Shown: positions 36,097-63,299 of the stretch, piece by piece
How positions within the stretch are numbered: position 1 is the stretch's first letter
Layout of the letters: each line of letters opens with the position of its first letter
Source: Amphiscolops sp. MND2022
Taxonomy: Eukaryota
DNA: 64,000 nucleotides
Direction of reading: 5' to 3'
NCBI GenBank assembly: GCA_964187785.1
Contig: OZ076409.1
Coordinates: 496,001-560,000 of the forward strand
Program-made: the position numbers and the translations under genes
Notes under the pieces: model-generated
What the model saw: the letters and a program-made list of their open reading frames with translations, nothing else
Database searches by the model: none
What the model was told of the DNA's origin: nothing

Positions 36097-36339
36097 TGTT
36101 ACGTAACATTGATGTTACTCAGAAGTCAAACTTGAACTTTGATTGCAAGAATAATTGACTAATGACTCATAAGTTCTAATGCGGTAAAACAGTGTGGACA
36201 AATGTGGTATGTAACTCTACTTCTACTTATTCGACGATTTATAAAGACTATCAGGTAATCCCTTTTTGTTGTTTCTAGTATTGAATTACAACTATTCTGA
36301 AGGTTGGATTTTGCAAACACTAACTGTCCACACGAAGCA
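36097..36339 (+). repeat. 5' LTR
   Basis: TGTTACGTAAC...ACACGAAGCA; TATAAA at 36240. Confidence 0.95.
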
Positions 36340-36374
36340 TTCAATACACAAAAGGCAACTGTTACGAAAAAAGA

Positions 36375-42611: not shown

Positions 42612-45600
42612 TCATGGTGATTCGGGGGTCTGTTGGTCGTGCGGGGTACTGCTGCTGCTGCTCACTTTGAGATTGTAGAGCGCGAAGTGTAGTAAGAGCA
42701 TGTGTGTCTCTCTGACGTAATGGAAAGTGGCCGAGTACTCAGAACAGCACCTTTCGCCCTGAAACAACACAGTCTATCTCTCTCACACACAATTGACACA
42801 CCTCCTTCTACTCCATACAGCAGTACGGTAACGCCACTCCATTGCTTAGAAAAGCAAGTTCAAATACATAGTTTCTTAAAGCTGTCATAGATACTAAAAA
42901 GCAAACTACGAAAGTTTCTTGCAACTTTTTGCAATTCCACAAATATTCGTTTGAAATTTCGGCTACAATAAATACGCAAGAATGTGCAAATTTTGATCGA
43001 AGTCAATCAAAATAGCACTTCTATGAAGTTAAGAAGTCAAAACATTGATTCTCTAAAATTTTCTGTTAACATATTTACCCCCAAATCACCTATGCGATGG
43101 CGTATTTGTTGTAATTCCGAACCAATTGGCAATTAAGACAATTGAGAGTTCAGGGGTTTTAAGGAGTTTCAAAATGGAAAACGTTCCCAAAAAGTAAATT
43201 TCAAGTTACAAAAAGTTTGAAAAAAACTCAAACTCCGATTAAAATTTAATCAAAATTGTTGTAACTTTTGCAATCGGTGTCGTAGAAATTTTGAAAACTA
43301 GGAAAAATTCCTAGAAATTTTAGACGCTGACTAGTTTCCGCTTCTGTGGCCAATTTTGAGGTATTTGGATTGGATTTTTACTTCAAGCTATGGTGTCGCG
43401 TTATTTTAAGTCCCGTTTACGGATTGTTCTCTAGAATAACGCTCCACACTAGCGTTATTAGATACGTTGGAAATTTGTGCCATTTCAAAATTAGCTTCAT
43501 GAATTTCAGTTCAGTTACGCAGAGAAAAGCCTCTGGTTGTACTTCAAAACAACGCTAGAGGTTGTACTATCATCATCAAGGAGTGATCTTGAAAAATTTG
43601 AATCGAAATTCAGTGTCTCAGATACAACACTGTCACTGTCGTGGAAGAAGGAATTCAAGTGGAAAAACTCAGTGTCGCTGGGTATCGAGATTAAGTCTTC
43701 TTAATCATCAGCAAGGGGGAGAAGGGTTGGAGAAAGGCCAGCTTCCAGGGTAATTAAAGAAGCATATCTGGAATTACTATGTTACTACACTCCTGTTTAA
43801 TCATTAATATTTCCGCCCCCCAAATTTATTTGTGAATGGGGGAGGAAAATCATAATCTGTCTTGTATTTTTTTCCAAATTCCGCCAAATCTCCACTTTAT
43901 TACTGCATTTAGTGAAATCTAGTCACCATGGCGCAGGTGGTAGTGCGTCTTCCTGGCAGACACGAGGTCGCGGGTTCGAACCCGTGCTGATGCGTTACAT
44001 TTTTAGCGGAAAATATCCCGGTGCTTAGCGGACGTCTTGTATAACATAATTAACACAGAGGCGAAGCCGTGCTTCGCAAACACTTGCGAAGAAAGTTGCG
44101 AACTTTTGAAGAAAACCAAATAAGCAATATCATACAGGGAACTAATGATAAAAGAACATTAAAATTTCATCAAATTTACAGCGCCAAAAATACCCGAAGG
44201 GATACGCATATATCTCGAAAATCATTCTTCCCCAACTGGAAACAGCAAAAACCCATCATTCTCAACCAAAAACCTTTCAAAAAACAGAAAATAGAGGAAA
44301 CTTTTTTCGAAATAAAATTTTTGATGAAGGTCTCCGGTAAGTTGCATAATGCCGAAAACCTTGAGATGTCCTTTATGCTCGTAAAACGTTTCGTTTCTAG
44401 TAAAAATTGATAGAGAGCTTCGATGAAAACAAATTAGAAAAAAAAGTGGCATAGAAAAAACACCGGTCCTTAAAAAAACAAAAATCGGATATAGAGTGCT
44501 GGGCCTGAGAAAACCTAATTTTAAGACAAAAATGATTCATTTAAAAAAATCTCACAATGCCGAAAACTGTGAAAGTGGGGCTGTTTGAGATTTTCAAACA
44601 TCCATTGTGTTGCAAAATTTCAAAAAAATTAAGGGGAACCTTTGGTACAATCAAAAAATTTGAACAATTTTCGGAAAAAAAAACAAAAAATGCTTCAAAA
44701 AAAATCGGATATAGCATGCTGGGCCTCAGAAAACCTAATTTTAAGACAAAAATTATTCACTTTGAAATTTCTCACAATGCCGAAAACTGTAAAAGGGGGC
44801 CCTTTGAGATTTTTTAACAAGCATTCTGTTGCAAAATTTCAAAAAAATTGAAGGGGAACCTTTGGAGTCGTTGAAAAATTTCGAAAAAAAAACAAAAAAC
44901 ATGAGAATTTTTAAGTCTCATAGTGCCGAAAAATCTGAAAGAAGAGACCCTTTGGGATTTTTCAACATTCGTTCTGTTGCAAAATATCAAAAAAATTGAA
45001 GGCAGGGCCCTTTGGGGGACATTGAAAAAATTTCGAAAAAATCTCACAAAGCCGAAAAGGGTAGGGGGTCTCAGTGCCGAAAAAGTGAGCAGCTTCTGCT
45101 TCGGATTACTTGTTAAAAAAATAGCGCATACGCACGGGTTCGAACACGGACCCCCTCGGTTGAAAAGCAAGCATCTTACCACTAGACCACGAACGCCTGA
45201 ATTATGCGACTTGCGGGCTGAAACGAGAGTTGTCGCGCGGAAAAAAAGCACCCGCACTTTCCCATAACACTTGCTTATCGCAAGTGTAACCACTGTACCA
45301 GTTCACACCGCCTTTGATTTTTCTCGAACTACAAGCTTTGTTATTTGAACAAGAGAAAACACAACGACCAAGCGTACAAGCGTACAACGACACATATTGG
45401 CATGAAATAGAAATTTGTACAGAAAAAACCGGCGACACTAACCTTTACCGGCTAGTGTAATTAAAATGTGCCGTGAAATGAACGCACACCAATGGAGATT
45501 AACAGCTGAAAAGCAGACCCGAAATCAGGTTCAATGTGATTAACCTCGACAGTGATTTCGTCCTCAAATGAGGACAGCGATTTTTTCTATCAATAAAAAT

Positions 45601-48600
45601 TACGAAACGCAAAAAGCATATAGGAAAACGAAAATTTGTTTTTCTCATCGACAATGTATTGGACTATCTGGGGCGAGTTGTTATTTGTGTCAATATAGTT
45701 TGTTTCCCGAATCACCGGCTAAAAAGTAACGGGAAAAAGTCAAAATTTGCAAAAAAAAATATATTTTTCAGAAAATTCCCCTTTTCTCCATAAAAACACC
45801 TGTTTGCACACTCTAGTAACACAATTTGCCACCATTGAAAACGCATATAGGACATTTTTCAAAGAAGCTTCAGCTAAGAGTTCGGCCGGCATTTGAAAGG
45901 CCCGGCGAGCATTTGAAAGCTTAGGTAAAGGGCTTTCAGGGGCAGAAAATCGATTTGAGCTGAGGTATATTCGAGAACGAGATATTACTGGTGGAGAAAT
46001 GAAGCTTTGAAAAAATGTTGCCAATTTTTTGTCAATTTCTCAACTTCTCGGTGTACTGTCGAGGTTAACGATGAATTAGCAAGGGCGGAATGGAGGATGA
46101 ATGAACAAATCAAATATGTGTGTGTAGCGTAATGTACCTGAAAGTGTCTGTGCAGAGAGTAGCGGTGGTACCAGTTCATGTGCAGTAGTGGTTCGAACTC
46201 CCTCCCGGGTGCGAGGGCATGGAACAGCTCTCTGCCCCTCACGTCCACCGTCTTGTCCGGAAAGACTCCCGCCTCTGCCAGACACCGGCCTACAGCGACA
46301 CAGGGCGTGCAACTCTGAAGGAAATAAATATGAAGCATAGCATATCGACGAGTACAGTCCATCCACCTTCTTTCCATGTTCAAGGTGCAAGTTTGTCTGT
46401 CTGATTTAAAAAAAAATACATTTCTGGTTTGTAAGAAACAGCATTTCATTCTTCCACTTCGGTCTCATTTTGAAGAATGAGTCCTTGCGTGAAGCGATCA
46501 TCAAATGCCGATCAAAATGTATAAACTTATCTACATGTTCAACTGGTTTCAAACAGACAAGTTCAACTTGTTTTTGCCATCTTTTCTACTTTCATTTTTT
46601 AGCTTTCCACAAGATAAAACATTCAAACATTTGCTCGTCTTTGACAACACTAGTTAACAGGAAGATTTCAACATCTAAACACACATTATCAAAATTGATG
46701 GACCCCAAACCCAAAAGATCTGCAGCACTGGCATTGACTTTGCATTATTCTATGGATTTTAAATTAATTGATGCTTTCCAAAGTGAGCTCGCATGCTCAT
46801 TTGTTCAACAAGTACATTCATTATTCATCAGTCTACACAAGGATGCCAAAAATCTGTTTATTGGAAAAAATCATTATACATGTTCTTTATCGAAAAATTT
46901 TTGTATATTTTTTTATTTCGAAATAAACAATTATATTATATAAGTATCAAATTGTACCAAAGTGAGTTAAACAGCATTCAACTGTCTATAGAGAAATGCC
47001 ATTTCCCTGCTTTCTGAAATCCAAAATTGCTTCAAGTGGGGCAACATCTTGACATTGGGCGGGCCCGGGTTCTTCCGTCGCTCCCAATTTTCTTCAAAAA
47101 GCCATAGTCAATCTGCCCTCTTTTTAACCCATTTTGATCGGAAAAGGAAATTGTTTCAAAACATCTTTTTCTTTACCTACTGTTTTAAAACACGACAACC
47201 CTGGGTCTACTCCATAACTTGTGACCGGCCACAGAGCTACACTCCCATTCACCCACCCACCCACGCCCGCCCCACATGCACACTCACCGAGCAGCAGGTC
47301 CTCGGGGCCGATGAAGAGGCGGGAGCACCTGTTGCTGTGGGTTTGGGTTTGGGTTGAGTCACTGTCGCCTCTCAGCACAGGAGTCACCAGGCGCATCGAC
47401 TGTCTGCTGAGAACGTAGCCCGCGCCCCCACTGTTGTAGCCCTTCTGAACAACAACGACACAACACAACTTGAATCATCACGTCAATTAGAAGATGAGTC
47501 GACGAGACGTTTCGTCAATACAAAATTAATCATCAGGTCGTGAAAAAGCGAAAAACTGAATATCGAGAGAAAATCGCAGCTCAGTTTTGAGCTCAGTGAA
47601 CATTGAAACAATCAAAAACAAGACATGCCTGTCGAAAGTTGCAACCCGCTCAAGGGATGAGCTCTGCTTTGTAACCAATTAGGCCAAGTTGCGTGAACAA
47701 AGCCTGTTAAAAAAACTGGACCATTCAGAGACATTCTGTGGTCTAACGAAAAACTAGTCACTGCAATGGACGGGCACATTTTTCACAAAATGCTGCTAAT
47801 GTGACCCGACTAAAAACGCAGCGCGATGTGCAGCTGCCAATATTGTTAGGGAGTTTGTATTATAGCTCTACCGCCATGGCTGTCCCCCCGCAATGATGGA
47901 GTTAGCCAGTGGCACTCACATGCACGTATTTCCTGAAAGTCTTTCCGAAGTAGTGAGGCACACTTGCGTTGTAGCTGCTTAGGAACAGGCGCAAGTTCTC
48001 CATTATGACGTAAGTGTCGTCGTCGGCCTTCAAGAACCAATCATATTCGTCCAAAACGTAGTTCTCGCCGATGAACAGAATGCTCTGTCTGGTTTTGGCC
48101 CACAACCACTTCCTGCCTTTTCTGCCCAGCTCAAACACCTCCACACACAAAGCACAGCAGACATCAACAGCAGCAGAAAAATTATCAGTGATCTATTTCA
48201 TTTTTGCCTTTTTTAGACGGTGCTTTTGGTAGAAAAACGCAGACTATAGCAGTGACTTTTTCAAGACCAACGAAGTGACATATTTTATAAGCTTTATAAG
48301 CTGGCTTCCACTAACTGCCACACTGATGTAACTTCTACTGCCACTTGGCATAGAGGTTAATTAGGATTTTTTGAGGTCTGCCAAGCAGGACAAGGGTTCG
48401 AGTCTCGCCCTTGACCAATTTTTTTGTGCATGTAATTTCGGCTTTGTGAGATTTTTTTCGCAAATTTTTTAAAATGTCTCCGAGAGGTCCCCCTTCAATT
48501 TTTATATTTTGCACGGAATGGATTTTCAAAAAATCCCAAAGGGTCCCCTTTTTTCGGCACTATGCGACTTTCCGGAGATTTAAAAAATTTCGAAAAAAAA

Positions 48601-51600
48601 TTCGGGTACTGTAGAGAGTACTTGACGCTTGGAAGTCCTTTGCTATTTTTGAGCCTTGGAATATGGCGCCAACCTGGGCCGTTCTCGGCTTGTTCTTTCT
48701 AACAGTTTTCTAAACTAACTTAATAAGGACCGCGCGTACTGAAACCGGGATTTGGTGTAAAAAGATGGAATTTTTTGCCCTTATTACATGGAGGGCGTGT
48801 CCGTGAAAAGAGTTTGGGTGTCAGTACGCTACAAGCTGCAGAGCCTCCTTACAGTGTCAATAACGGCACTTTGAAATAAATTTGTAAAACATCGGTAAGT
48901 GGAGGGTAATTTATAAATTAGGACAGTGTATCTCAAATTTTATTGATCGTCGCAAATTATATGGTTTCACGGGAAGCACCGGAGGGATTGTCAGATTTAT
49001 AACAGACCTCCCTCGTGAACTATAGCACCGATAGATGACTCTACGATTGCTTGTTGGATCTATTTCATTGCTCAAAGTTGTCAACGCAGCAGGATAAAAA
49101 CCGTCTTTCTTCGAATACAGGCCGCGGCTGGTAACAGTTTTTCCCGTAGTGATTGCGCGGCCTATATTCAAAGAAATAGGGTAAGCTATGGCTTGAAGAT
49201 AAATTTTCCAGCCTTAATGCGGCTTCTAATCGGGGGCGACTTCTATTCGAAGCAATGTGGTATTTGAGACCTGACCTTCATCAGTAGTCTGAATTGCATT
49301 CAATTTAATTCAAACCAGAGCCGCATGTGCGGGAAAGGAGTCCGCTTAGGTCTTTTCCTTCTGACTCGCTCGAATCCCAGTCATAGGCTTTAGATGAAAT
49401 TGCAAATATAGGACCTAATATGGTGTAGAATGACGGCAGAAAATTTTGTTCGAATCGTATGGACAGTTTTTGAGATACAAGAAAAAAGTCCAAAAACGGC
49501 TGTTTTTTAGCAATTTTTGGGCTAATTTTTGTAGAAGGTTTGTGCAAAATTTTATAAAAATAGTACGGTCAGTTTTTGAGAAATTTTCATTGAAATGTCA
49601 GGAGAGAGGTAAACGATTGCATGAATAGTCGAAAATTTTTAAAAAGTGACACGACCCAACTGCACATTCAAATCGTGCAGTGATCGGTGTTAGGGTTAGG
49701 GCAAGACTGGATTGGATGCGTGGTGGTTCATGAATAGAAAGAACAACATCATGTTGATGTGTGCTGCAGCAGGTGCCTCGAAAGGTTGCAAGGGGTGGTT
49801 GTGGGGGGTGCTGGCGGTGAACTGGTCCGAGATGAAGATGGCCTTGTCGCAAGAGGGCGCCCACGTCAGCGCCACCGCCTTCGCTCTGGACGCCAGCGAC
49901 TTGTTGTGCGTGAGGATGAAGCAGAACACACGCGGAGGGGGAGGGGGCGGGACAGGGGAGTCACTCAGAGAAGAGGAGGAGGAGGAGTTGAAGGGAAAGA
50001 GCAGAGAGAGGGAAGAGGAGGAGTTAGAAGAGAGGACAGAAAAACGAGACCACCCACCCTGTACACGCCGCCCTACATGAGCCAGTAGAAAGATGATCGA
50101 GTGATAAACACTTTTGTAACAGGAGAAAAAAAAAACAGAACAAAACATATTTTGCAACCCACTGGAGTTTCACAAAGCCGAAAGGGTTCCCTCTAAACAA
50201 TTTTAAGTCTTAGATATAGCGCCGACTTTGGCCGTTCCAGGCTTCTTTATGGTAAATGGAACTCACGGCGACAAAACTGAGGGTTCCCCTCCTTTGCTTT
50301 GCAAGACATTCAACAAACAGTTCTATAAACACAGCTGGTGTAGGTTGTAGTGGTTATCACACTACGAACACGTTGCTTTCGTGTCGAGTTAGAAAAGTTA
50401 AAAGCTAAAAATTTCGACCGAGTACACACCTCAAAACGTTCACCCCTAAATAGACCATGGTACGATTTCGTACCAGTTACTTTCTGCAAGCTTCTGAAGG
50501 CACACTAGCTGAACGTATAGAAAAAAAACTCGAACAAAATTTTTAGACGATATTACAGAGCATTGCACGCATTTTCGCGAAATTTTGACTTGATGTCTCT
50601 GAAATCAAAAACGCGGGACCAAAAAATCGACCAAAAAAACTAAGTGCAGACTACCAATCATCATCACAAAACCTTTGACAACAGTCAATAGCTAAGAATT
50701 TTTATAAATGATAGCTGTTAAAATTTGATATTTTTTCGATATATTTACGGTTGATTCGAACCCTAGACTGTCTAGCTACAGCTATACAAATGAGCGGTCA
50801 AACAAAACAGACATTTAAAATAGTACAAATAATTTTTGGGCATAAAAGCTGAGACTGCCTAACTTTTTCCAAAGAAGCTAGCGTGTATCTATCAAAGTTC
50901 CAGCAGAAGCTGCACACTGAGGCAACTGCTGTGCAAGGCTCACGAATAGGGAGGGGGGGAGGGGAGGGGAGGGGAGGGGAACTTGTGATGTAACAGAGCG
51001 GAAAAGTTTGAATTGGAATTCCGCCGTACTCTCTCGCTCTCTCATACACTTCAAAATAGTTCAACAATGAGGGGAAAATTGATTGTGCGGAAGAAAAGAA
51101 TTGGACATTGCCCTAGTGAAGGAGAGAGTAGAGAGAAAGGGTGGCTATGGAAAGGGTACATGAAATACAACATGCATGTATTTTCTTTCCACCTTTCAAT
51201 ACACGTGACGTGACCATAAGTACGGTATGATGAGGAGTGGGTTTAGTATCATTTCACCCCACATTTAAATTATCAAATGCGTCTCAGATTAATGACTAAA
51301 GCCACCCAGTTTCAGTCTTAGCGCTAATAGAAAAGCGTCTTGAATCTAATTACCAATTAGATAAGCAAACGATGCTTGCAATGTGAACCACAAAATCGGA
51401 ACCGAAAAGTTTCACTTATCGGAATTGTAATGCACCTGAACTGAACAAGGTGCTGAAAAAAAAACATTTTTTTTCTGTCAATCAGCCAATCTTCAATTAT
51501 GGATGCTGAGAATCTTCAGCAAAAATTTCTCATTCCGTTTTATTAGTCACATATGGCCCGAATCTGACAATCAAATCAAAGTTAATTCAAAGACAGTAGA

Positions 51601-51862
51601 CATCAAAGTTTAATTACCAATTGGTTCAGGTGAGAAGCTTATGGGGTGAAATGATTTCGGGGTGAAATGAACGCACACCGATGGGCGAGGGTTGGGTTGG
51701 GTTGTTGATGAGAAAAGAAGCAGTGGACTAACCAACAATGTGCATGTGTCGTCGTCGGCCGGCAGGGGAGGAGGAGACTGACGAGGAGTACAAGAGAGCA
51801 CAAGAGGCGGCGGTGAAGAGGGCGACCAGAATGGCCACTGACACTGACTGCGTCCTCCACAT
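42612..51862 (-). CDS. C1GALT1: Core 1 beta-1,3-galactosyltransferase (T-synthase, GT31)-like; exons 51862-51733, 50072-49777, 48138-47920, 47444-47288, 46289-46138, 42758-42612 (~366 aa)
   Basis: N-terminal TM segment; RVFCFILT..RAKAVALTWAPSCDK; LWAKT; YDWFLKADDDTYVIMENLR; GYNSGGAGYVLSR; EDLLLGRCL; GRELFH; CCSEYSATFHYV. All exon phases are compatible. The start codon could lie further upstream, and this may be a paralogue rather than the orthologue. Confidence 0.9.
43878..44040 (+). repeat. Repeat family with a tRNA-derived core (internally deleted inverted copy at ~25632-25750)
   Basis: TGGCGCAGGTGG A box and GGTTCGAACCC B box; flanks are shared with the reverse complement of 25632-25750. 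Confidence 0.65.
45125..45196 (-). pseudogene. tRNA-Glu(TTC)-like pseudogene embedded in a repeat
   Basis: GCGTTCG TGGTCTAGTGGTAAGAT..CTTGC TTTTCAA CCGAG..GTTCGAAC..CGTATGC: acceptor and D arms pair, T-stem is mispaired. Confidence 0.5.
48210..48695. mobile_element. HINE/DINE-1-like element in the C1GALT1-like intron
   Basis: TTTTAGACGGTGCTTTT..GCAGACTATAGCAGTGAC start; GGCGCCAACCTGGGCCGTTCTCGGCTTGTT end. Confidence 0.75.
49101..49260. mobile_element. Short MITE, unexpanded relative of the satellite-bearing element
   Basis: CCGTCTTTCTTCGAATACAGG...GCGGCCTATATTCAAAGAAATA...GCGACTTCTATTCGAAGCAATGTGG-TA. Confidence 0.75.
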
Positions 51863-52402
51863 CTTCCTGCTTCTTCGGGGAGGGGAAGAACCCCAACAAC
51901 TGCGGCTGCTGCTCCTCGTGGTGTCTCTTGGCTTCCTCCCCCTTTCTGTCTCCTCCTCCTCTTTCTGCACCACTCTTTCCTCCACACACACAACAGACGA
52001 CTGCATAAGAGGGGGGGGGGGTAGGGATTACTGCTGCTGTTAACTGCAGACAACCGGGGTTTTATTACATTGGAAGAAACTATTCATCACGAAAAGACAG
52101 TAAGTAGTTTTTAGTGTTTAGACTCAAAATCTGTCGTCATTTGAGAGCAAGTCAATTCCAACAAATAGAGCGAAATGATACAACTTCGGCAAGAGTTTGT
52201 CCGAGATGTTCGAGTTTACTACTTCTTACAATACTTCTTAGTTTCTGTTTGACAAGTGACACCATCTTACCAACAACCAATCGAGGAGTGATTGAAATAT
52301 TGCAGCGACACCAAATAACAGCTGCTATCTAAAGTGCATTCTATGTACTGTGAATTACATTCCATTCTATAATGGTGTGTGTGTGTGATTTGTACATGAA
52401 AA

Positions 52403-52809
52403 CAGTGAATTGAATTGTACACAATACACGACAGGATACGCAATTTTTTGCTTTTTAAATACACGAATCTGCACGATACGCGATTTTTTGAAATACAGAC
52501 GAAAAATACACGACGTTACGATAAGAGTGACAACGGGACGCAGACAATGTGTCAGTCGTGTTCAAAAAATTGATCCTTGACATTTTAGCCGTTCCAGCTA
52601 GCTCAGGAGCAGTCGAAATGCTATTTTCTCAATGTAACTTACGATGCGCAAATAGAAAAAACCGTTTGTTGCCGAAAAACTTCGAAGTTTTTCATTTTTC
52701 AGAAGAGATACACGAAAATACACAATTTTTGAAAATATACGAATTCACGTAATGGTTTTTGCAAATACACGATACATGAAAAACTCGATACACGACAATT
52801 AATTCACTG
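52403..52809 (+). mobile_element. hAT-derived non-autonomous element
   Basis: TIRs CAGTGAATT/AATTCACTG; internal LDILAVPASSGAVEMLFS..RKNRL (hAT dimerisation domain remnant); no clear TSD. Confidence 0.7.
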
Positions 52810-54035
52810 TTTGTTACTTAGACAGAGAACAACAGAACAGAAGAGAACAGCTGCGTGTGTAATCCCTGTGTGAGCCCCCCAGCCCCCGTTAGTTGGTATA
52901 CCAGTGAGGAGCGTGCTGCAACAACGGATGCTTCATCCACATTGGCGCCTCCCAGACTCCCAAACATGGGTGCCCCCAAGAGCCCACTGCGACAACATGC
53001 AGACACACCCATCCTCACCACAGAGAGATTGGCGAGTCTCTCTCTTACACTACCCCTACCCACTCCACTGAGGCATCAACAATCGAATGAGCACATGGCA
53101 GATACATGCACACACAATCTGAAACAGGGGCCACATCCCACCACCCATTCATTTGTATTGATTGACTTCCCCCAGGTAAGATCCAAAATCCCCCCAGGTG
53201 AGATCAAGCTTCATTTCGACACCAATATTGAGGCAAAAAGTTAATTACATACATTCAATCAACTTATCGAGACGCTTATTGAGCAACGGCATATTTTCAG
53301 TCTTGAACTATTTGACCAACATTTATACAAAAAATTGTTGGAAGTTTGCACAAAAGGGATAAATTTGCGTTGAAGTAATGCGCGAAAAAAACCTGTGAGA
53401 TTTTCCATCAATATTTAAAAATTGATTGAAACCCTTTTTTTCAAAATCATTGATAGTAGTCAATGATTGCAATTATAACACATTTTTTGATAATCATTAC
53501 GATAAGTAGATGGAATAAGAATTGGTCACTTACGATTCCTATTAGATAAGATGAAATACGACAAACGTTTATAGAACGCTATTATCAACGACGAAATTTC
53601 TGAAAACTGAATTTCAGACGACGAAATTTTTGACAACGAGATTTGCGAGGATGAAATTTCTGGTAACCCAGGAAACGGTCATATTATTGTTCAAAATCTA
53701 CAAAAGACTGTTCAAAGATACAGAATGTGCGCCCTAATGACAGTCCAACTGAGCCCCAAACCCAAACTGAGACAACCAAGTCACACCGATTGGACATCAT
53801 AATGTTATATACGACGTTCTATCGAAAGACGTTATTTCATTGTTCCAATTGAAAAGTTACAAATTTTCAACATTGATCAGAGTCGAGAACCACGCTTTAT
53901 CTGGCATTTGCTCAGACTACTTGGATAAAAAATCCAATGGGAACTTGGATAAAACGGCATCAGTTAACTAGGTATTAGCCCACTTTCCATCAGATGTGTT
54001 TTTATCAGAAACTGGTACTGATATGAATTGATTTA

Positions 54036-56188
54036 AACAAGACGGGAACGTCTAAAGTCGGCACTATATCTAGGGCTCAAAAAGCGCAAAACATTTTTTA
54101 TGGAAAAAAAATTGAAATTTTCGAAAAACTTTCTTTCGGAAAATGTCGCACAGTGCCGAAAAAAATCAAAAGGGGGGACCCTTAAGCCTCGGTCGGTTTT
54201 GTAGGTTACGTTTTAAAAAGAAAAATGAAAAGGGGGACCCTTTCGAGACAAAAAATTTGCACAGTGCCGAAAAAAAAACGAAAAATCGAAAGGGGGGACT
54301 CTTTAGTCCCGTCCGGTTTTGTAGATTACCTTGAAAAAGTAAAAAATGAAAGGGACTTTGCACTGTTTGCCTTGACCCCTTTGCCGGACTGGGCGCCTTA
54401 GGTGGTTTCAGGATTGTTTCTAAAAAGTGGATCGATCAGTGTGAGGATTGTAGTCTGAAGAAAAAACAAGACGGGAACGTCCCAAGTCGGCGCCATATCT
54501 TAGGCTCAAAAATATTCAAGGAACAACTATGTAAATCTCATTGCAATATCTTTGATAAATTGTTGAGTTTCAATCATAAATAAACAGTTTCTTTGTAAAT
54601 TTCTCCAAGCTTCAGTTCGAATTAGGTTTCTGTGCCGACTTTGTTGTCTTTATCTTCTTAATCAACTTTCTTCGCTTCAGTCAAATACTTCGGAAGGATT
54701 CGAACAACTATTGGAAATATCTGGAAAAAAAATATTTTTTTTTTCAAAGAAGTTTTTGGTAAAAAAAGTCGCACAATGCCGAAAAACCTAAAAAGAGGTC
54801 ATTTAGGCCCATTCAACGTTTTCTACAAACCGAAAACTTGAAAAAATGCAAGGTGGTACCCTTTGATAAAATTCAAAATTTTTCGAAAAAAGTCGCATAG
54901 TGCCGAAAAAAAACCCAAAGGGGGGACCCTTTGGTCTCACCTGTACTTTTGGAAGCATTAAAAATTTATGGTTTAGTGCGAGAATCGAACCTACGCTCTC
55001 CGGCTTGGTCGAAGATGAACAAAAATGAAAGATGAACAAATATGAAAGATGAACAAATTGTAAGAAAAGTGGACCACTCAGAGTGAGATTGTCAACTGAA
55101 AAAAAACTACTCACTGTAAGAGTCGGGCTTTTTTCCCTAAGGGAAAAGGCGCCGACTAAAAACAGTCACTGCTATAGTCGGGCATTTTTCCCTTAATGGA
55201 AAAGCGCCCACTTAAAATACAGGAGTTTGGAAGTGATTATATACGAGCTTCCTCCTTGGGGAGGGGTGCACCTAATTAGAACAAGACGAGAACCACTCAA
55301 GTCGGCGCCCCGCTTGAAGCTCAAAAAGCGCATTTTTTTCAAGATGCTCAGGGCTTTTGTAAGGAAACTCTCAAACATGAGGAGAGTGGTGCCGAATTTA
55401 CCGAGGGAGTCTAGAAAACGCCCTTGTCTAACTGGACAAAAAACATCGGAGAAGCAAATCGGGCAATTTTGTTTCGAAAAAAGTTGCAGTGGCAAAAGAC
55501 GCTAAGAAGACCGACTCTTTTGTCTCTAATAGTTTCAGGAATACTGTAAATATTACTTTTGGTCTCGATGGACTCCTTGGGTGGCCTTTAAAACATAGAG
55601 GCGTGAAGCAACCGAGTTTGTTAAGTAAAATTAACTGAATAACAAGCCGGGAACGGCCCAAGTCGGCGCCATATCTAAGGCTCAAAAATAGCAAAAGGAC
55701 TTCAATGTGTCAGGTATTCTCTTCTACAAAACCCACGTGAGAAAAAACTAGAAAAAAAATTAAATTTTTTTTTTGAATTTTTTTTGATTTTTTTTGGTCC
55801 TCGGTAAGTCGCATAGTGCCGACAAATGTAAAAGGGGGCATTTGGGAGTTTTTGAACATCCATTCTTTGGAAAAATGGGAAAAAAATGAAGGGGGACCCT
55901 CTGGAGACATTAAAAAAATTTGCGAAAAAAAGTCTCACAAAGCCGAAAACAAACCTGCACAAAAAAATTTTGGTCATGGCGGGACTCGAACCCATGTCAT
56001 TTTGCTTGTCAGACCTCGAAAAAGCCGTAGTGGCCAAGTGGCAGTGAAGTAGTGTGGCACAGTTTAGTGTTAGTGCCGGTTTAGTGCCAACTTATAAAAT
56101 TTATAAAATCTGTCAGTTCGTTGATCTTAAAAAAAAAAGAAGTCACTACTATAGTCTGCGTTTTTCTTCGAAAAGCGCCGACTAAAAA
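54036..56188. mobile_element. Cluster of head-to-tail HINE/DINE-1-like elements
   Basis: AACAAG..AAGTCGGC(A/G)C starts at ~54036, 54464, 55280 and 55640; hairpin ends (AGTCGGGC..AAAAG(G)CGCCGACTAAAAA and variants) at ~55160, 55215 and 56188. Confidence 0.8.
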
Positions 56189-56511
56189 ATGCACGATTTA
56201 CGGTGACTGAAAAAAAGTTGCCAAAAAAGCGCCAACTTGAAAAAGTCTCATGCTACCATTATTTTCACAGTTATTTAAAAAATTTGGAAAGAGCAAAACA
56301 AAACTCAATTCACATTTGTCATGTCTCGTCTAAAAGAGTTTTGGCTTTGAAAAATTAGATAATTCCAAATCACCGTGGCCATGGCAAAAACGAATTGGTC
56401 GAAAGCGTGAATTAACTAAACCATGAAGAAGAGATTGACAAAAACAACAATGAGCAATGGGACACAAGTGGGAGAGAGGAGGGAGACAACATAGCAATAG
56501 GAGTGGCGGCA

Positions 56512-57396
<885 letters not shown>

Positions 57397-59150
57397 CTGC
57401 ACTCTGAAACTCAACAACTAGCTGCTGCTGGGAAAATTATACTTAGTGCCAATTGAATTTGACAATTTGACAAGTAAACAAAAGTACAGATCACCTTTGA
57501 CGATTTTGGAAAGATCGCCTGGGGAAAAGACCGGCCGAGTTTGATGCTTTAGTAATAATCCAACTCACACATTAAAATGCTAAGTATGTGCTAATTAATA
57601 TTCGAAAATTGAATAGAGTGGAGAATGTAAAAACTACGATTGGGACACAAAGAAATCCGGTTAATTTGCTTCAACCTATTCAACTTCTCGTCCTAAAGTT
57701 AACCCCAATGAACCTAGTGATGCTTTAAAGCAGCCTACCTTTTCTTCCAAATTCTGATTCCTTTTGCCAGTAGCCCATTCTCTCTAGCACGGTTTTTTTT
57801 CAACAAGTAATCGGTACCTAGCTTGATTTGAATGGCACAAGCATTAGAAAAAGGGAAAATATCTCCAAACCTGAGAAAAATGGGTTTTTTGCACAAAAAA
57901 AGAGTTATATTTCCTCAAAATTCAGATTTTGACGAAATCCTGTTTTCTCAAAAGTCTTTGATCAATAGAAAAAACCAACCACATACCCTTCCACAACAAG
58001 TCCTGGTGCAACAAACCCCTATAATATTCTGTTGTTACTACAAGCCCCCGCGCAGCGGGCCGCACGAAGTGCGGAACTGCCGCGAAGCGGCGGTACCGGA
58101 AAAAGAGACTAAAATTCTGAAGGAAGGGGCGCGCGGCGACAGGGGCTCACCTGACCAAAATGAAAGCCCAATATCAGACCTTTCAAACGCGCTATAGTTC
58201 GTTCCTCTGGTACGCGTAGTTGTGGAGATATTGATGATTGAAATTTTTTTGGCAAATTTTTCGAAAATTTTAAAAAACGCCCAGGTCGATTGGGGTTAAT
58301 GACTCGTAAACTTTTCTACTTCTTTCCTTTTATTATACTAATGCAAGCGCTTTCCATTCAGATTCGCCGAAAGTACATTGAACATCGCATCGCGCCTTTG
58401 ACGATTGAAAACCATGTTGATGATCATTGATTGAAACATTCGGTAGTGAACACTTGATTTAATAACAGTTTTCAACTGAGAACAGTAAAAGGAATACCAA
58501 TTTCGAAAAATTCACTGACGTATTCAAACTCTTGGGCTTTGTTACTTGAACCAAAAAAAAATCCAACTAGTAAGCGTACATGATGTTTCGTACTCGTATT
58601 TAATGCAGGCGAAACTCTCGGCGTACGAAGAATGATGTGTTCGCTCCATCTCAATAAAAGCAGTCTAGCTGCTACGAGAATTGGGGACGAAATGGGACGA
58701 TAGATAAGAGAAAAAAGTACCTTGGACGATTCCTATAACATTTCAGCTCCTCGAGCAGAAAAAAACACATGTTGAGTGAGCAGAGAATCTTGTGGCTTTA
58801 AATTTATGATTCAATTGAGAAAATTGACAGAAGCTTGGCTCTATAACAAGACTTCTTTGACGAACTGTTGCCAAAACGAACTAAGAGCAAAAATGAAGCT
58901 CACTCTAAGTGCACATCACAGGTTCATAAACTTAGCTTGAGCGAAACGTGGACTAGAGAGTGAATGTGGAGAAATGAAAGAACGTCTAAAGGATTAAAAT
59001 CTTTTTATAAAGTTTCCGTTATAAGTTCAACTCAATGGAAACAAAAAACAATTACTCAAAACAAGTCACTTGAAAAATAGAGAGAGCACCGGAAAAAGAG
59101 GCGAAAAAGGTTGCGTGTGAATTTGACTGGATTGAACATCTTATCCAGTC

Positions 59151-62100
59151 TTATTCGTTGAAGACAGCAACTTCGTGGGGCTCAAAAGTCTTCTGTCTGA
59201 GATGCTGCAAGTTGAGAGACTGCATGCGATTGAACACTTCTAGACGCTTCTGAGCCAGTTGCTGCGCTCTGCACATACATACATACCCACTCATTGCTAA
59301 TTAGTCAACAATATTCAAAACCCCACAGGACCGAAAATAACCAAAGAGGTCATCTTTAAGACTTGAAAAATGGGTTTTGCTCAGCATAAAACCTCAAAAA
59401 CAAAAATTGCGAAAAAGTTTTCGGTAAGTCACACAGTGCCCAAACCCCACAAGGAGCCTTTATGTTCGCAAAACGCTTGCTTTGTTCCTGCTAAAAGTCT
59501 AAGGGTGCTTCGGTTTTGATCATTCAGAAGGAATGTCGCATAGTGCCGAAAAAATCCAAAAGGGGGAAGAAAGCTTTGGTATTTCCTTTACCTGAGGTAG
59601 AGGCCTGCATTAACTGAAGACTCAATCAATTCTAGACCAAATTTTTTCGATTCTCAGTGCCAGTTTCGAGAATAACTTCTCGATAAGAAATCAAAACGCG
59701 AAAATCGGTTCCACTGAAACGATTGCTTCGTGTGCTTCAACAAAACACAAAACATTGCTTAAAACCATTTTCCCTGAAAGTATGACAAAAAACGTATAAT
59801 GATGTTTGGGCAGTTATCTTTTCGGCTGTGAGGGAATAGAGGTGATCGATAGCATAGCAATGAATGGGGGGGAGGGGGTGCCTGCCTGCGGACGAAGTTG
59901 GGGTCTCCCACGAGGCGGTTGGCCTTGAGCAGCTGGTTGTTGAGGGTGTTGAGCACCTGTTCGGGTGGCAGCAGACGCCTCTTGCTCACTCCCTCCAGCA
60001 GCGCCCTGTGCATGTCCCCGTGAGTGGAAAACCTGTTGAGGATGTGGGCCACCTCGATGAAGTTGAGGGGACCTGCAATCACCACCACCACTCAGAAAAC
60101 AAGTTACTCTTGCTCTTGGACATAGCTTACAAAAAACAATTTGACAGGAACAAAAGGTTTGTAGACGTGATCGGCGATTGATTGTATTATTTAACACTAA
60201 TTGGACGATGGTACCAAAAATCAAAAAAAAATTGAGCGCAGATTTTCCGTTTTTCCAGTTTTCGTTTCTGGCCACTCTATCCCACTTGTATCAAGGTTGG
60301 GTCAAAGTGGCCCCAGCATGTTTTGAAACATGCTGAAATGCAGTGAGAAACACCAAGCGTGAAAGTTTTGGTGCCAAGTCCGGAGTCAGTGTGGCGAAGC
60401 CCCTAGCCCAGCAGTCGGACTTGAATGGTTTAGGAGATATAGTGGTTTTAAGTTTAAGCACCAGATTTTTGGATGGATCCGGAAAATTCGTTGTCCATTT
60501 AGGGAGAAGCAATAGTAAAAATGCTACCACCACTTCACTTCAGACAAACCCAAGTCAAATCAAGACAAAAATTGATAATCTGTTCCAATGCAGCGCATAC
60601 ACTTTTCGATCGAACTTGATACAAATTGATAACAGAACGTTAGTTCAGTGCTTCTCCTCTTCATTTTTCGTTGTGAACATACGCGAATAAGTTGATGCTA
60701 TTAACATGAAGATTGCAGCTACGTCACAAGTGAGTTGTATCGAAACAGAATAGAACATGGGCGGCTGTGATGGAGTTTACGAAACATAATACATGTATAC
60801 GCTGCATACAAGGTCCATGATTGTTGCTACACTTTGTCAAAACAAGCTTGACATACACGATGGGAATGTCGCTTCTAATACAATACGATTCCTTTGTAGC
60901 ATTGAGCTATGTGTACAGTACACTAATCTTTAAAAGCCCACCACACAGATAGGCCGTAGGCTAGAATTGCTTAGCAAAATCAGTTGATTTGTTGGCAAAA
61001 TTGTTGATAAGCAATTGCTTAAAAAGTTGACCTGAACGGGACTCGAACTCTCGACTCCTGGTGTGACAGGTATGCTCATAAACCAAGTGTGCCATTGGGA
61101 CACGCTATATCACCGTATTCTAGAGCACACAATTTGGACTATATTTCGCCTAATGGCTTTGACGACGCTGACGTTCATTTTTCTTGATAAGCAATACAGT
61201 TGTTCTGATTCTCCATTCATCACTAAGCTAAAATACGGCAAAAAGAATTGTTTTTAGCCGGCGCGCCTTTTCCCTTATGGAAAAAAGCCCGACTATTACA
61301 GTGGGTAGTTTTTTTCAGTTCACTCTGACTGAATGGTCCACTTTTTTGTTCATTTGTTCAACTTTTTAGCCGAGATATTTTAGTACAAATATAACGTTTC
61401 AAAGTTTGGATGTAACGTTTTCAAAGTTAAAGTTCGGATGTAACGGTTTGTTCGGATGTAACGGTTTGTTCGGATGTAACGGTTTCAAAGTTCGGATATA
61501 ACGATTTCAAAGTTTGGATGTAACGTTTTCAAAGTTCTTATATAACGTTTTCAAAATTCGGATATAACGTTTTCATTTTTCCCCAATTTTTTTTCGTTTT
61601 TTTCTCGAAATTTCACAATTTGTTGAGTCTTAGATATGGCGCCGACTTGGCTTGTTCTAGCCTACAGGATTGCTTGGGAATTGCTTCATTTCAGAGCATT
61701 TGTAGCCTACGTAGCTTATCAAAAATAAGAGTGTGTTGTCACTACCTTCGGCCTTTATCCTGGCGTTGAGTTTGATGGGGAAGCGAGCAGTGCGGATCTT
61801 GTGTGTGCGTGCGACGTCAAAAGAGGCGCCCTTGCGGACTATTTTGTCGACGAGGCCCCCTATGACGAAGATGTCTTCGGGGTCGTACTCTTCTAGGTCG
61901 TGGGGCGAGTCAGGGCTGAGGTAGACGAGTTGCTTGGCGGGGAACACTTGCACACAGCTCAGTGACGTCACGGTGGCTCCCACGTGCTCAACTCCATTCA
62001 CGTACTTGTCGAGGAACCTGTACACGCGGGAGCTCTCCTCAAACTGGGTCACGTACAGGTGGAAGGGCTCGGGGATCTTGCTGAAACAAGACAAGGGCTG

Positions 62101-63299
62101 GGGGGTTAATTGGGTTGGGTTGGATTGGGTACGAAGTGACGAACGATTGGCTACGAACGAGCATTTCAAACGGCCAAAAGGAGACATGCAATACAACACA
62201 TGGCGGCTATTCACAAGTCCGAAAATATATTTGTGTTGCACAAGTCCGAAAATAAATTTGGGCTGTACAAGTCCGAAAAATACTTATCACATTTGTTGTA
62301 TGGCTCGGTCGCTTCGCTCCCTTCGCCAAGTAGCAACATTGAGGCATGGCCATATGGCACGTCTCTTCGTTCCTGCATTTAGGGTACTAGGAGTATGTGA
62401 GCATAGCTGACTAGGGGAAATAGATAAATTCATTTTTCCATCTTTGAACGGACTTCGGTTCGACCCCGTCAGCCAATCAGATTGCAGAGAATTATACAGT
62501 GGTAAGTATTTCTTACGCTGGGATTTCTGAAATCTTATTGGACGAGAAAATTTAATTTTATTTTTTTCGGACTTGTGACCCGACACCCAAGTTGGGTGAC
62601 CCAACATTCAGCAGAGCTGCAGAGTTTAACATTTGGAGGCGTTTCAGCCGGCAGCCAATCATGGAATTGATCGGTCCACTGTAACATGTACATGTATGTA
62701 TTTGCATGAGAGGAGTCAACAGAACATAAAATACAGTGTGAAACCGAGTGAATCATTGCCCAATTAAATTTCAATATGTCATCGAAGATAACGCGTGAAA
62801 TAATTTTTTGTTTGAAAATACGTAAAATGGCGTGAAATTGAGAAAATACAAAAATGTAAGTTTTAGCCGAAAAACTTTTTGATTCTAATAATCAGCACCG
62901 ATAGAGCTCATTTTTGCAGCCAACTGAATGAGCGTGTGGTTTTGAAAACTATATTCTGAAGTACTTGTTCTTGTAAGTCAGTTCCAAAGATTTTCAAAAT
63001 GTAAACAAAAATGCGTGAAATAGCACCAAAATTAGCGTGACACGGAAGCGTGAAATTGTGCCCGCCTAGATACAGTGTGGGTGGCGGGGGGGGGGGTATG
63101 GTATACATTTACATGGTATGTGGTGTACATGCAGCAGTACTCACGAGAAGAAGGAGAGCATGACGAGTATCTGTCTGGCCATGTCCTTGACCGCGTGCTC
63201 GTTCATGAGGTGATCGTAGCCCATGTCCAGCACCACCGGCAGCCCCACTCTCGCGCCCACCCCCAGTCTGTCTCTGCCGGCATTCTTGCCCACCCGCAC
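59151..63299 (-). CDS. TRMT10C: tRNA m1G9/m1A9 methyltransferase, TRMT10C (MRPP1)-like, 5'-partial; exons 63299-63145, 62080-61746, 60072-59886, 59268-59151
   Basis: GLPVVLDMGYDHLM..Q; EPFHLY; VFPAKQLVYLSPDSP..IFVIGGLVDK..GAS..ARFPI; HIL..HGDMHRAL..VSKR: Trm10 SPOUT domain with TRMT10C-like features. Phases are compatible. The paralogue assignment and the frame of the last exon are less certain. Confidence 0.82.
61030..61102 (-). repeat. tRNA-derived (Asp-like) SINE-type segment
   Basis: TGGCACACTTGG A box, CTGTCAC loop, GAGTTCGAGTCCC B box; stems are degenerate. Confidence 0.4.
61252..61655. mobile_element. HINE/DINE-1-like element with an internal ~18-21-bp minisatellite
   Basis: TTTTAGCCGGCGCGCCTTTTCCC..CCCGACT start; (GGATGTAACGTTTTCAAAGTTC)n at ~61390-61572; GATATGGCGCCGACTTGGCTTGTT end. 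Confidence 0.8.

What the first reader, a model, noticed from the sequence alone, without database searches (positions are those of the whole stretch)
48139..59886. Unusually frequent GC-AG introns (3 of 10 reconstructed coding introns)
Seen: homology-guided exon joins need GC donors in three different genes: C1GALT1-like GAG|gcacct (49776), POLR2K CAG|gcacgc (57303) and TRMT10C-like AG|gcaggc (59885; alternative CAG|gcaccc at 59881). No convincing GT donor lies nearby. All follow exon-terminal AG, and two or three begin GCAC rather than the usual GCAAG. Known: GC-AG introns are around 1% of introns in most animals. Inference: a lineage with relaxed or altered 5' splice-site recognition (U1/U6 variants), or intron gain by AG|G-duplicating insertions. 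The sample is small.
Basis: partly seen in the sequence, partly recalled or inferred. Interest (0 to 1): 0.7.

Follow-up and report, generated by a model that had tools for sequence, protein, structure and literature searches.

The report
Hairpin-closed introns lacking GT donors
In this animal genome roughly one sampled intron in twelve starts with GC or GG instead of GT, and almost all of these have ends that can base-pair with each other, which suggests that RNA structure helps remove introns with weak start signals.

Summary
The three GC donors are at the stated places on the minus strand. Only POLR2K (CAG|GCACGC, intron 56650-57303) is firmly supported. The C1GALT1-like join is ambiguous between GC-AG, GG-AG and a poor GT-AG. 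The TRMT10-like join rests on an open frame, not on homology. I reconstruct 8 window introns: 5 GT-AG, 1 firm GC-AG and 2 uncertain.

No RNA run was listed, so I mapped 72 introns elsewhere in the genome (actins, tubulins, clathrin heavy chain, HSP70s): 66 GT-AG, 3 GC-AG and 3 GG-AG. Non-GT donors are therefore raised (8%), but not to 30%, and GG-AG is the more unusual class.

The main result is new. In non-GT introns the 5' end is complementary to a stretch just upstream of the 3' splice site. This holds for 8 of 9 non-GT introns against 2 of 68 GT-AG introns (Fisher 2e-8), and a cross-pairing control gives p = 1.5e-6. All three flagged introns show it.

U1 and U6 are unchanged at the bases that read donor position +2. 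The two intron-bearing stretches searched genome-wide are single copy.

Best reading: structure-assisted removal of weak-donor introns, possibly derived from transposons. This is inferred from DNA only; transcripts are needed.

The parts
57304..57396 (-). POLR2K coding exon 1 (31 codons, M...VQKQPQ).
   Evidence: Open frame. The sequence was read. The N-terminus resembles those of the homologues printed.
56650..57303 (-). POLR2K intron, 654 nt, GC-AG (CAG|GCACGC ... GGTCAG|GCC). This is the one firmly supported GC donor.
   Evidence: The gene region including this intron is single copy in the genome.
56512..56649 (-). POLR2K coding exon 2 including the stop codon (zinc ribbon).
   Evidence: Pfam PF03604, E 2e-18. 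It is 89-91% identical to animal RPABC4.
57262..57305 (-). 5' arm of the POLR2K intron helix. The core is the (GCAC)n...CCGCAT stretch.
   Evidence: duplexfold gives dG -36.6, shuffle z -3.7, and rank 1 of 77 in both directions. The helix is present in the MFE and centroid folds.
56651..56697 (-). 3' arm of the POLR2K intron helix. The core ATGCGGTGTGTGTGC lies at about 56660-56674, 11-25 nt before the 3' splice site.
48139..49776 (-). GTGGAG|GTG). The alternatives are GG-AG 49777->48122 and GT-AG 49747->48122.
   Evidence: HMM scores 156.8, 159.3 and 157.0. The acceptor has G at -3, seen in 0 of 69 sampled acceptors.
49732..49778 (-). 5' arm of the C1GALT1-like intron 2 helix (core CAGCACACATCAAC).
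   Evidence: dG -31.2, shuffle z -3.0, ranks 2 and 1 of 77.
48142..48198 (-). 3' arm of the C1GALT1-like intron 2 helix (core GTTGATGTCTGCTG).
59262..59881 (-). Putative TRMT10-like last intron (CAG|GCACCC ... GCGCAG|CAA). An equivalent reading is AG|GCAGGC 59885 -> 59269. It is not supported by homology.
   Evidence: It carries the same terminal helix as the other non-GT introns.
59855..59868 (-). 5' arm of a 14-bp helix (CCCATTCATTGCTA), at intron positions +14 to +27.
   Evidence: The helix is present in the MFE and centroid folds. Rank 1 of 77 in both directions.
59286..59299 (-). 3' arm of the 14-bp helix (TAGCAATGAGTGGG), 25-38 nt before the 3' splice site.
50073..51732 (-). C1GALT1-like intron 1, GT-AG (TTG|GTTAGT ... 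TGTAG|GG).
47445..47919 (-). C1GALT1-like intron 3, GT-AG (CAT|GTGAGT ... TTCAG|AAG).
46290..47287 (-). C1GALT1-like intron 4, GT-AG (CTCG|GTGAGT ... CTGTAG|GCC).
42759..46137 (-). C1GALT1-like intron 5, GT-AG (CAG|GTACAT ... TTTCAG|GGC).
60073..61745 (-). TRMT10-like intron between the methyltransferase exon and the next exon, GT-AG (GAAG|GTAGTG ... TTGCAG|GTC).
   Evidence: A 66%-identical protein from elsewhere (P0242) reads straight across this join.

Best explanation
The flagged GC donors belong to a wider class of introns in this genome. These introns start with GC or GG rather than GT and end in AG. Their 5' end, often including the splice junction itself, is complementary to a stretch lying 2-40 nt upstream of the 3' splice site, so the RNA can close the intron with a helix.

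Shown here:
- The class exists outside the window, including in the clathrin heavy-chain gene.
- It makes up about 8% of 72 sampled introns.
- The helix is strongly tied to the lack of GT.
- All three flagged introns carry such a helix.

Inferred, not shown: these introns are still removed by the major spliceosome. All nine keep G at +1, AG at the 3' end and an AG| exon end. The helix would compensate for the poor fit of the donor to U1/U6 by holding the 5' splice site next to the branch and 3' site. In four cases the 3' arm ends in CCTG or CCCT opposite the exon-end AG|G of the donor, much as the 5' end of U1 would pair, with the base opposite +2 changed to match C or G.

The helices may have begun as terminal inverted repeats of DNA transposons. 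The three GG introns all start (C/A)AG|GGAT, which is like hAT ends (this resemblance is recalled, not tested).
For: Tally outside the window:
- Actins: 13 GT, 1 GC, 2 GG, with 2 junctions unresolved and one stop-ridden locus dropped.
- Tubulins: 19 GT, 1 GC, 2 unresolved.
- Clathrin heavy chain: 21 GT, 1 GC, 1 GG.
- HSP70 family: 13 GT, with one odd copy dropped.

Helix test. I computed a duplex between 3 exon nt plus the first 45 intron nt and the last 60 intron nt, for the 77 of 78 collected introns that were long enough.
- Non-GT introns: mean dG -27.4, mean shuffle z -3.19, 8 of 9 with z <= -2.
- GT-AG introns: mean dG -14.3, mean z +0.13, 2 of 68 with z <= -2.
- Fisher p = 1.9e-8; Mann-Whitney p = 4e-6.
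- Using only introns outside the window (6 against 63), p = 1e-5.
- An internal 60-nt segment pairs worse than the terminal segment in 9 of 9 non-GT introns (Wilcoxon p = 0.002).

Cross-pairing control with natural sequences. An intron's own partner end ranks in the top 3 of 77 in both directions for 7 of 9 non-GT introns against 2 of 68 GT-AG introns. The residual z is -3.59 against -0.14 (p = 1.5e-6).

Geometry and example helices are, for example CAG|GCAAGGATTGTCA with TGACAATTCTTGCCTG, and CAG|GGATGTT with AACATCCCTG.

Whole-intron MFE and centroid folds keep the closing helix for POLR2K, the clathrin GG intron and the TRMT10 intron.

The GG donor of one actin gene is identical in two assembled contigs.

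U1 and U6 are unchanged at the relevant bases.
Against: - There is no transcript evidence at all. Every junction is inferred from protein homology.
- Only 9 non-GT introns were found. Two of them lie in one divergent actin gene, and two of the three window cases are uncertain joins.
- I noticed the complementarity in several of these introns by eye before testing it.
- One GC-AG intron (clathrin, AAG|GCTAGA) has no significant helix (z -0.5).
- Four GT-AG introns also show terminal complementarity (residual z < -2).
- One of two GT-AG control introns also pairs its ends in the MFE fold, so MFE closure alone does not discriminate.
- A helix that buries the 5' splice site would normally hinder U1 binding. 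This fits a spliceosomal mechanism poorly for the four introns whose helix starts at the junction.
- The sample comes from conserved, many-copy families and may not represent the genome.
Confidence: 0.5

Rival explanations
1. Hairpin-triggered, spliceosome-independent excision. Under this reading the paired intron ends are the recognition signal. The RNA is cut near the base of the helix and re-joined by an RNA ligase, as in the SOS splicing described for DNA transposons in C. elegans and human mRNAs. Here the process would be fixed as the routine way to remove some introns.
For: [quoted passage not shown] In four of the nine non-GT introns the helix starts at the junction itself and would mask the donor from U1. 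In those four, only 7-14 nt separate the helix from the 3' junction, which leaves little room for a branch site plus a pyrimidine tract.
Against: All nine introns keep G at +1, AG at the 3' end and an AG| exon end. That is what the spliceosome needs, and a structure-guided nuclease does not. The paper describes SOS splicing as cutting at multiple sites and leaving small indels. That is hard to reconcile with exact in-frame removal from clathrin heavy chain and POLR2K. My method only looked for G?-AG among equally scoring split points, so other cut sites within the short ties cannot be excluded.
Confidence: 0.15
2. Neutral relics. Under this reading the inverted repeats are just the ends of old DNA-transposon insertions that became introns. 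The spliceosome of this lineage tolerates C or G at +2 anyway, and the helix has no role in splicing.
For: Terminal inverted repeats define DNA transposons. Non-canonical introns derived from such elements are described in Fritillaria, Amoebophrya and euglenids (PMC11282704 and PMC7789003, passages). The three GG introns share (C/A)AG|GGAT, which recalls hAT ends (recalled, not tested). A hAT dimerisation remnant lies in the window at 52531-52749. Sampled GT donors are already loose at +3, which is A in 33, T in 19, C in 9 and G in 8 of 69.
Against: - I saw no target-site duplications next to the repeats (by eye).
- The POLR2K region and the clathrin GG intron each have only one match in the genome.
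- The termini of the nine introns are unrelated to each other. Shared pieces are internal dispersed repeats.
- The actin GG intron occupies the same position and phase as GT-AG introns in two paralogues.
- If the arms were unselected and old enough to have lost their copies and duplications, 10-16 bp helices would be expected to have decayed.
Confidence: 0.2
3. Altered snRNAs. Under this reading U1 or U6 variants read GC and GG donors directly.
For: The genome does hold several U1 variant families, such as ATACTAACCTG and ATATTTAAACCTG.
Against: None of the 23 U1 hits has G or C at the base that pairs with +2. The ATACTAACC variant fits +3 T, not +2. The three U6 genes read have a canonical ACAGAGA. 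This idea also does not explain the link with terminal helices.
Confidence: 0.05
4. Artefact. Under this reading the non-GT calls come from mis-joined exons, pseudogenes or assembly errors, and true junctions are GT-AG.
For: There is no RNA evidence. Two window joins are ambiguous. Two of the non-GT introns lie in one divergent actin copy.
Against: The clathrin joins are exact against an 85-90% identical reference with no indel, and no GT lies among the tied split points. The GG donor is identical in two contigs. Random errors would not produce helices specifically in the non-GT set.
Confidence: 0.07

Closest known systems
Ordinary U2-type GC-AG introns of animals. A passage read in PMC7789003 cites 1.2-2.1% non-canonical introns in animal, fungal and plant intron sets, with GC-AG the most frequent.
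   Same: GC at the donor, AG at the acceptor and an AG| exon end. Two of the sampled GC donors (GCAAGG, GCCAGT) look like this class.
   Different: The three window donors read GCAC, lacking the A at +4 and G at +5 that the sampled donors prefer. The sampled rate is about 4% rather than about 1%. They come together with GG-AG introns and with terminal helices.
Non-canonical introns of larvacean tunicates: Fritillaria borealis (AG-AC and AG-AT, thought to derive from MITEs; review PMC11282704, passages) and Oikopleura G*-AG introns (recalled).
   Same: An animal genome with many non-GT introns that may come from inverted-repeat transposons.
   Different: Here only position +2 departs, AG is kept at the 3' end, and the share is about 8% rather than most introns. 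The clathrin protein is about 76% identical to molluscs, hemichordates and arthropods alike, which gives no sign of a fast-evolving larvacean.
Euglenid nonconventional and 'intermediate' introns (review PMC11282704, passages).
   Same: Base-pairing near both intron ends brings the ends together. The borders are not GT-AG.
   Different: Euglenid nonconventional introns lack conserved borders and leave as circles by an unknown route. The introns here keep G...AG and splice-site-like exon ends, closer to the 'intermediate' type, and they are in an animal.
SOS splicing of DNA transposons from C. elegans and human mRNAs (PMC12779559).
   Same: The trigger is pairing of inverted terminal repeats, and the sites are mostly not GU-AG.
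   Different: SOS splicing is described as imprecise, with many isoforms, acting on transposon insertions. Here the elements are unique introns in conserved genes that must be removed exactly.
Introner elements with inverted and direct repeats in Amoebophrya (PMC7789003, passages).
   Same: Inverted repeats of 8-20 nt between the 5' and 3' ends of non-canonical introns form a hairpin that joins the exon borders.
   Different: Those are repeated families with direct repeats at the borders and highly variable dinucleotides, in a dinoflagellate. Here there are no families and no direct repeats, only GC or GG donors, and the host is an animal.
U12-type introns with GG-AG ends (PMC2831892, passages).
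   Same: GG-AG termini occur naturally in rare minor-class introns.
   Different: The GG donors here (GGATGT, GGATCT, GGATTT) lack the CC at +5 and +6 of the minor-class consensus (recalled). No U12 gene was found, although the search scored only 43 of 88069 candidates.

Membership tests
Canonical U2-type GC-AG introns | GC at +1 and +2, with AG at the 3' end. | tested here: met
Firm for POLR2K.
Canonical U2-type GC-AG introns | The rest of the donor matches the consensus strongly, to offset the C at +2 (recalled: AG|GCAAGT). | tested here: not met
   A position weight matrix from 69 GT-AG donors places POLR2K at the 68th percentile, C1GALT1-like at the 7th and TRMT10-like at the 9th. All three have C at +4.
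U12-type (minor) introns | A 5' splice site of the form RTATCCTT and a TCCTTAAC branch site near the 3' end (recalled consensus). | tested here: not met
   Donors GCAC.. and GGAT[G/C/T]T lack CC at +5 and +6. Only one intron has TCCCTAAC near its 3' end (judged by eye).
U12-type (minor) introns | Presence of minor-spliceosome snRNAs. | tested here: inconclusive
   RF00007 gave no hit, but only 43 of 88069 candidates were scored. U11, U4atac and U6atac were not searched.
Transposon-derived introns (introners, MITE introns) | Terminal inverted repeats. | tested here: met
   8 of 9 non-GT introns have significant end complementarity.
Transposon-derived introns (introners, MITE introns) | Target-site duplication flanking the repeats. 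| tested here: not met
   None was seen by eye beyond the AG/G of the splice sites. No formal scan was run.
Transposon-derived introns (introners, MITE introns) | Many similar copies in the genome. | tested here: not met
   The POLR2K region and the clathrin GG intron each match only themselves. The termini are unrelated among the nine introns. Only two of the nine were searched genome-wide.
SOS splicing substrates | Base-paired inverted terminal repeats as the trigger. | tested here: met
   The defining feature is taken from PMC12779559.
SOS splicing substrates | Heterogeneous, mostly non-GU-AG junctions, and dependence on AKAP17A, CAAP1 and RTCB. | not testable with these tools
   This needs RNA and genetics. 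No RNA run was listed.
Euglenid-type nonconventional introns | End pairing with non-canonical borders, and excision as circles. | tested here: inconclusive
   The pairing is present. The borders are only mildly non-canonical (G[C/G]...AG). The form of the excised intron cannot be tested here.

The most novel reading that the evidence does not exclude
An animal lineage may have made RNA structure a routine part of splice-site definition. In a sizeable minority of introns, including ones in essential genes, a segment just upstream of the 3' splice site would pair with the 5' splice site in cis, in the register that U1 normally uses. This would free donor position +2 from the GU rule. Alternatively, an SOS-type, ligase-based excision system may have been recruited for constitutive and precise intron removal.
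Probability: 0.2. Interest if true: 0.85.

Novelty: new variant of a known kind. Interest (0 to 1): 0.65.

Why it matters
If confirmed, this genome would be a natural experiment on how far 5' splice-site recognition can be handed from U1 to structure within the intron. It would also link three separate lines of work: transposon-derived introns, hairpin-triggered excision, and structure-bridged introns.

There is a practical consequence. Gene finders that allow only GT, or GT and GC, donors will mis-annotate a noticeable share of genes in this species, including clathrin heavy chain and POLR2K. Terminal complementarity could serve as a predictor of non-GT introns.

For the original claim, the correction matters in two ways. 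GC-AG is raised but nowhere near 30%. The rarer and more telling features are the GG-AG introns and the helices.

Tried and rejected
- RNA evidence: the look-up of sequencing runs on window 52301-62300 listed no RNA holder.
- Retrocopies as a proxy for spliced mRNA: the POLR2K gene region matches only itself.
- Same-species proteins in the big collections: the best POLR2K hit is 91% identical. The 100% hit to the TRMT10 frame (P0241) is merely the window's own open frame.
- Earlier scan notes: nothing for this genome, its relatives, or the key words.
- Homology ranking of the C1GALT1-like join with an HMM of 92 homologues did not discriminate between models.
- Fringe-family paralogues mostly carry the relevant region in one exon and were too divergent to settle that join. 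They were not pursued.
- The first HSP70 reference was a BiP-like copy and left several junctions of the mitochondrial-type gene unresolved. I resolved them by eye from the flanks, using a recalled human sequence only as a guide.
- Whole-intron MFE closure as a test: dropped as a discriminator, because one of two GT-AG controls also pairs its ends.
- U12 search: no hit, but uninformative.
- Twin-intron (stwintron) and RNA-editing explanations were considered and set aside by inspection. No GT follows the first G, and C-to-U editing could not explain GG donors.
- Taxonomic placement from clathrin identities was inconclusive, at about 76% to several phyla.

Full report
**What the window holds.** The window is G000:C1:496001-560000 of a 1.07-Gb assembly in 1929 contigs. 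Base composition is about 40% G+C. The region 42-64 kb carries three genes on the minus strand:
- a C1GALT1-like gene (Fringe-like domain)
- POLR2K (RPAB4 zinc ribbon)
- a TRMT10-type tRNA methyltransferase

Pfam supports all three. The POLR2K exon is 89-91% identical to animal proteins, so this is an animal genome. Elsewhere the window holds an intact BEL/Pao retrotransposon frame, a 4.3-kb satellite and a hAT remnant.

*POLR2K.* The join CAG|GCACGC ... GGTCAG|GCC is in phase. It gives ...[16 protein letters not shown], which fits the N-termini of the homologues printed. The only in-frame GT upstream (ATC|GTCCAG) has C at -1, a state absent from 69 sampled donors. I accept this GC-AG intron.

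*C1GALT1-like.* I mapped six coding exons with ten homologues. Four of the five introns are clean GT-AG. The flagged join lies in a variable loop. An HMM of 92 homologues scored 5856 trial joins and did not separate these models:

| Model | Join | Score (bits) |
|---|---|---|
| GC-AG | 49776->48139 | 156.8 |
| GG-AG | 49777->48122 | 159.3 |
| GT-AG (poor donor) | 49747->48122 | 157.0 |

*TRMT10-like.* The intron between the methyltransferase exon and the next exon is GT-AG. A 66%-identical protein from elsewhere (P0242) reads across that join. The flagged last intron has no homology support. No homologue matches the proposed last exon, and the frame could simply run on to a stop.

My count for the window is therefore 8 introns: 5 GT-AG, 1 firm GC-AG and 2 uncertain.

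**Is the genome unusual?** No RNA run was listed, so I sampled introns elsewhere by spliced alignment of very conserved proteins. The references were an intronless actin, near-intronless tubulins, a mollusc clathrin heavy chain and an HSP70 copy. At each junction I scored every split point against the reference. I then asked which dinucleotides occur among the best-scoring ties, giving GT-AG priority.

| Gene family | GT-AG | GC-AG | GG-AG | Not counted |
|---|---|---|---|---|
| Actins | 13 | 1 | 2 | 2 unresolved; 1 stop-ridden locus dropped |
| Tubulins | 19 | 1 | 0 | 2 unresolved |
| Clathrin heavy chain | 21 | 1 | 1 | none |
| HSP70 family | 13 | 0 | 0 | 1 odd copy dropped |
| Total | 66 | 3 | 3 | |

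Of these 72 introns, 4.2% are GC-AG and 4.2% are GG-AG. The published background is 1.2-2.1% non-canonical introns in animal, fungal and plant intron sets, with GC-AG the most frequent. I take this from a passage of PMC7789003 that cites the survey, not from the survey itself. Non-GT donors are therefore raised here, but far below 3 in 10.

The GG-AG introns are the rarer kind. They sit in clathrin heavy chain (CAG|GGATGT) and in two actin genes (CAG|GGATCT and AAG|GGATTT). One of them occupies the same position and phase as GT-AG introns in two actin paralogues. The GG donor is identical in two assembled contigs.

**The unexpected feature.** While reading the 3' ends of the non-GT introns, I saw that each carries the reverse complement of its own 5' end a short way upstream of the 3' splice site.

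| Intron | 5' arm | 3' arm |
|---|---|---|
| Clathrin GG | CAG\|GGATGTT | AACATCCCTG |
| Actin GC | CAG\|GCAAGGATTGTCA | TGACAATTCTTGCCTG |
| POLR2K | (GCAC)n..CCGCAT | ATGCGGTGTGTGTGC |
| C1GALT1-like | CAGCACACATCAAC | GTTGATGTCTGCTG |
| TRMT10-like | CCCATTCATTGCTA | TAGCAATGAGTGGG |

I then tested this on all collected introns. I computed a duplex between 3 exon nt plus the first 45 intron nt and the last 60 intron nt, for the 77 of 78 introns long enough.

Results with shuffles of the 3' piece as the null:
- Non-GT introns have mean dG -27.4 and mean z -3.19; 8 of 9 have z <= -2.
- GT-AG introns have mean dG -14.3 and mean z +0.13; 2 of 68 have z <= -2.
- Fisher p = 1.9e-8 and Mann-Whitney p = 4e-6.
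- Leaving out the window introns (6 against 63) still gives p = 1e-5.
- An internal segment of the same intron pairs worse than the terminal one in 9 of 9 non-GT introns (p = 0.002).

A second null pairs each 5' end with the 3' ends of all other introns, which keeps natural composition and repeats:
- The intron's own partner is in the top 3 of 77 in both directions for 7 of 9 non-GT introns, against 2 of 68 GT-AG introns.
- The residual z is -3.59 against -0.14 (p = 1.5e-6).

Exceptions exist in both directions. One GC-AG intron (clathrin, AAG|GCTAGA) has no significant helix. Four GT-AG introns have residual z below -2.

Whole-intron folds keep the closing helix in the MFE and centroid structures for three non-GT introns. 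However, one of two GT-AG controls also pairs its ends, so I do not lean on that.

**What it is not.**
- *Changed U1 or U6.* The 23 U1 hits fall into several variant families, but none is changed at the base that pairs with +2. The three U6 genes read have a normal ACAGAGA box.
- *Minor-class introns.* The donors lack the minor-class motif (by eye; consensus recalled). The U12 search was uninformative.
- *Young repeat families.* The POLR2K region and the clathrin GG intron are single copy. The nine termini are unrelated to each other, and shared pieces are internal dispersed repeats. I saw no target-site duplications.

**How it most likely works.** All nine non-GT introns keep G at +1, AG at the 3' end and an AG| exon end. 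This points to the spliceosome. I therefore favour structure-assisted splicing, in which the helix holds a donor that fits U1/U6 poorly next to the branch and 3' site. In four introns the helix starts at the junction, and the 3' arm ends in CCTG or CCCT opposite the exon-end AG|G of the donor. The base opposite +2 matches C or G, so the arm pairs in the register that U1 uses. This reading is an inference.

The same geometry argues the other way too. A buried donor should hinder U1, and only 7-14 nt separate the helix from the 3' junction in those four introns. This keeps a spliceosome-independent, hairpin-triggered route open, like the SOS splicing recently described for transposons in worm and human mRNAs (PMC12779559; abstract and passages read). 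That system is described as imprecise, which fits essential genes poorly.

A third reading is that the repeats are inert transposon ends. The shared (C/A)AG|GGAT of the GG introns resembles hAT ends (recalled). The lack of copies and duplications, and the intron position shared with GT-AG paralogues, speak against recent insertion.

**Comparison with known systems.** Related cases are:
- MITE-derived non-canonical introns of Fritillaria
- introners with inverted repeats in Amoebophrya
- euglenid nonconventional and intermediate introns (PMC11282704 and PMC7789003, passages)
- rare GG-AG minor-class introns (PMC2831892, passages)

None combines an animal host, unique (non-repeated) introns, strict G[C/G]...AG borders and terminal helices. 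I searched the paper library three times and found no description of this combination. The library is partial and the species is unknown to me, so prior description cannot be excluded.

**Verdict.** The real finding is broader than, and different from, 'many GC-AG introns'. Everything rests on DNA and homology, so transcripts are the decisive test.

Noticed in passing
L098, L104, L105 (U1 hits on contigs C7 and C3); also L007, L099, L106: There are U1 snRNA variant families. Three genes start ATACTAACCTG, which would pair perfectly with GTTAGT donors. T at +3 is common in the sample (19 of 69 GT donors). Three others start ATATTTAAACCTG.
   Followed up: partly
window 36324-41852 (+): An uninterrupted 1843-codon frame with Pao retrotransposon peptidase, integrase zinc-binding, DUF1759 and DUF5641 domains. 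It looks like an apparently intact BEL/Pao retrotransposon.
   Followed up: partly
window 30657-34946: A 4.3-kb satellite array with an 87-bp unit (175-bp higher-order period), 97% matches and about 49 copies.
   Followed up: partly
window 52531-52749 (+): A remnant of a hAT transposase C-terminal dimerisation domain (E 5e-5), lying between the C1GALT1-like gene and POLR2K.
   Followed up: no
window about 48430-48620, 54110-54330, 54760-54950, 55790-55960, 59390-59580: A dispersed short repeat (…GTCGCATAGTGCCGAAAAA…GGGGGACCCTT…) litters the introns and intergenic DNA. The same element accounts for the similarities between unrelated introns on other contigs. Next to one copy lies a tRNA-like 3' end (GGTTCGAGTC…) near 48390-48415, but ARAGORN calls no tRNA in 42-64 kb.
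   Followed up: partly
TRMT10 intron 60073-61745; C1GALT1 intron 46290-47287; loci L083 and the clathrin region: A few GT-AG introns also show terminal complementarity (residual z below -2 in 4 of 68). End pairing is therefore not exclusive to non-GT introns.
   Followed up: partly
L033 (contig C2) against L015 and L036: A GG-AG intron in one actin gene sits at the same codon and phase as GT-AG introns in two paralogues. The donor dinucleotide therefore changed within an existing intron position.
   Followed up: partly
proteins P0242 and P0395 (from the large collections): Two proteins are 66% and 99% identical to single exons of this genome and read across exon joins (TRMT10 and clathrin). 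They suggest that sequence from a related organism exists in public collections. I did not trace their source.
   Followed up: no
L014 (contig C5:32248506-32252789): An actin-like locus with five in-frame stops, probably a pseudogene. I left it out of the tally.
   Followed up: no
window 49690-49705 (+): Two tandem TTAGGG units lie inside the C1GALT1-like intron.
   Followed up: no
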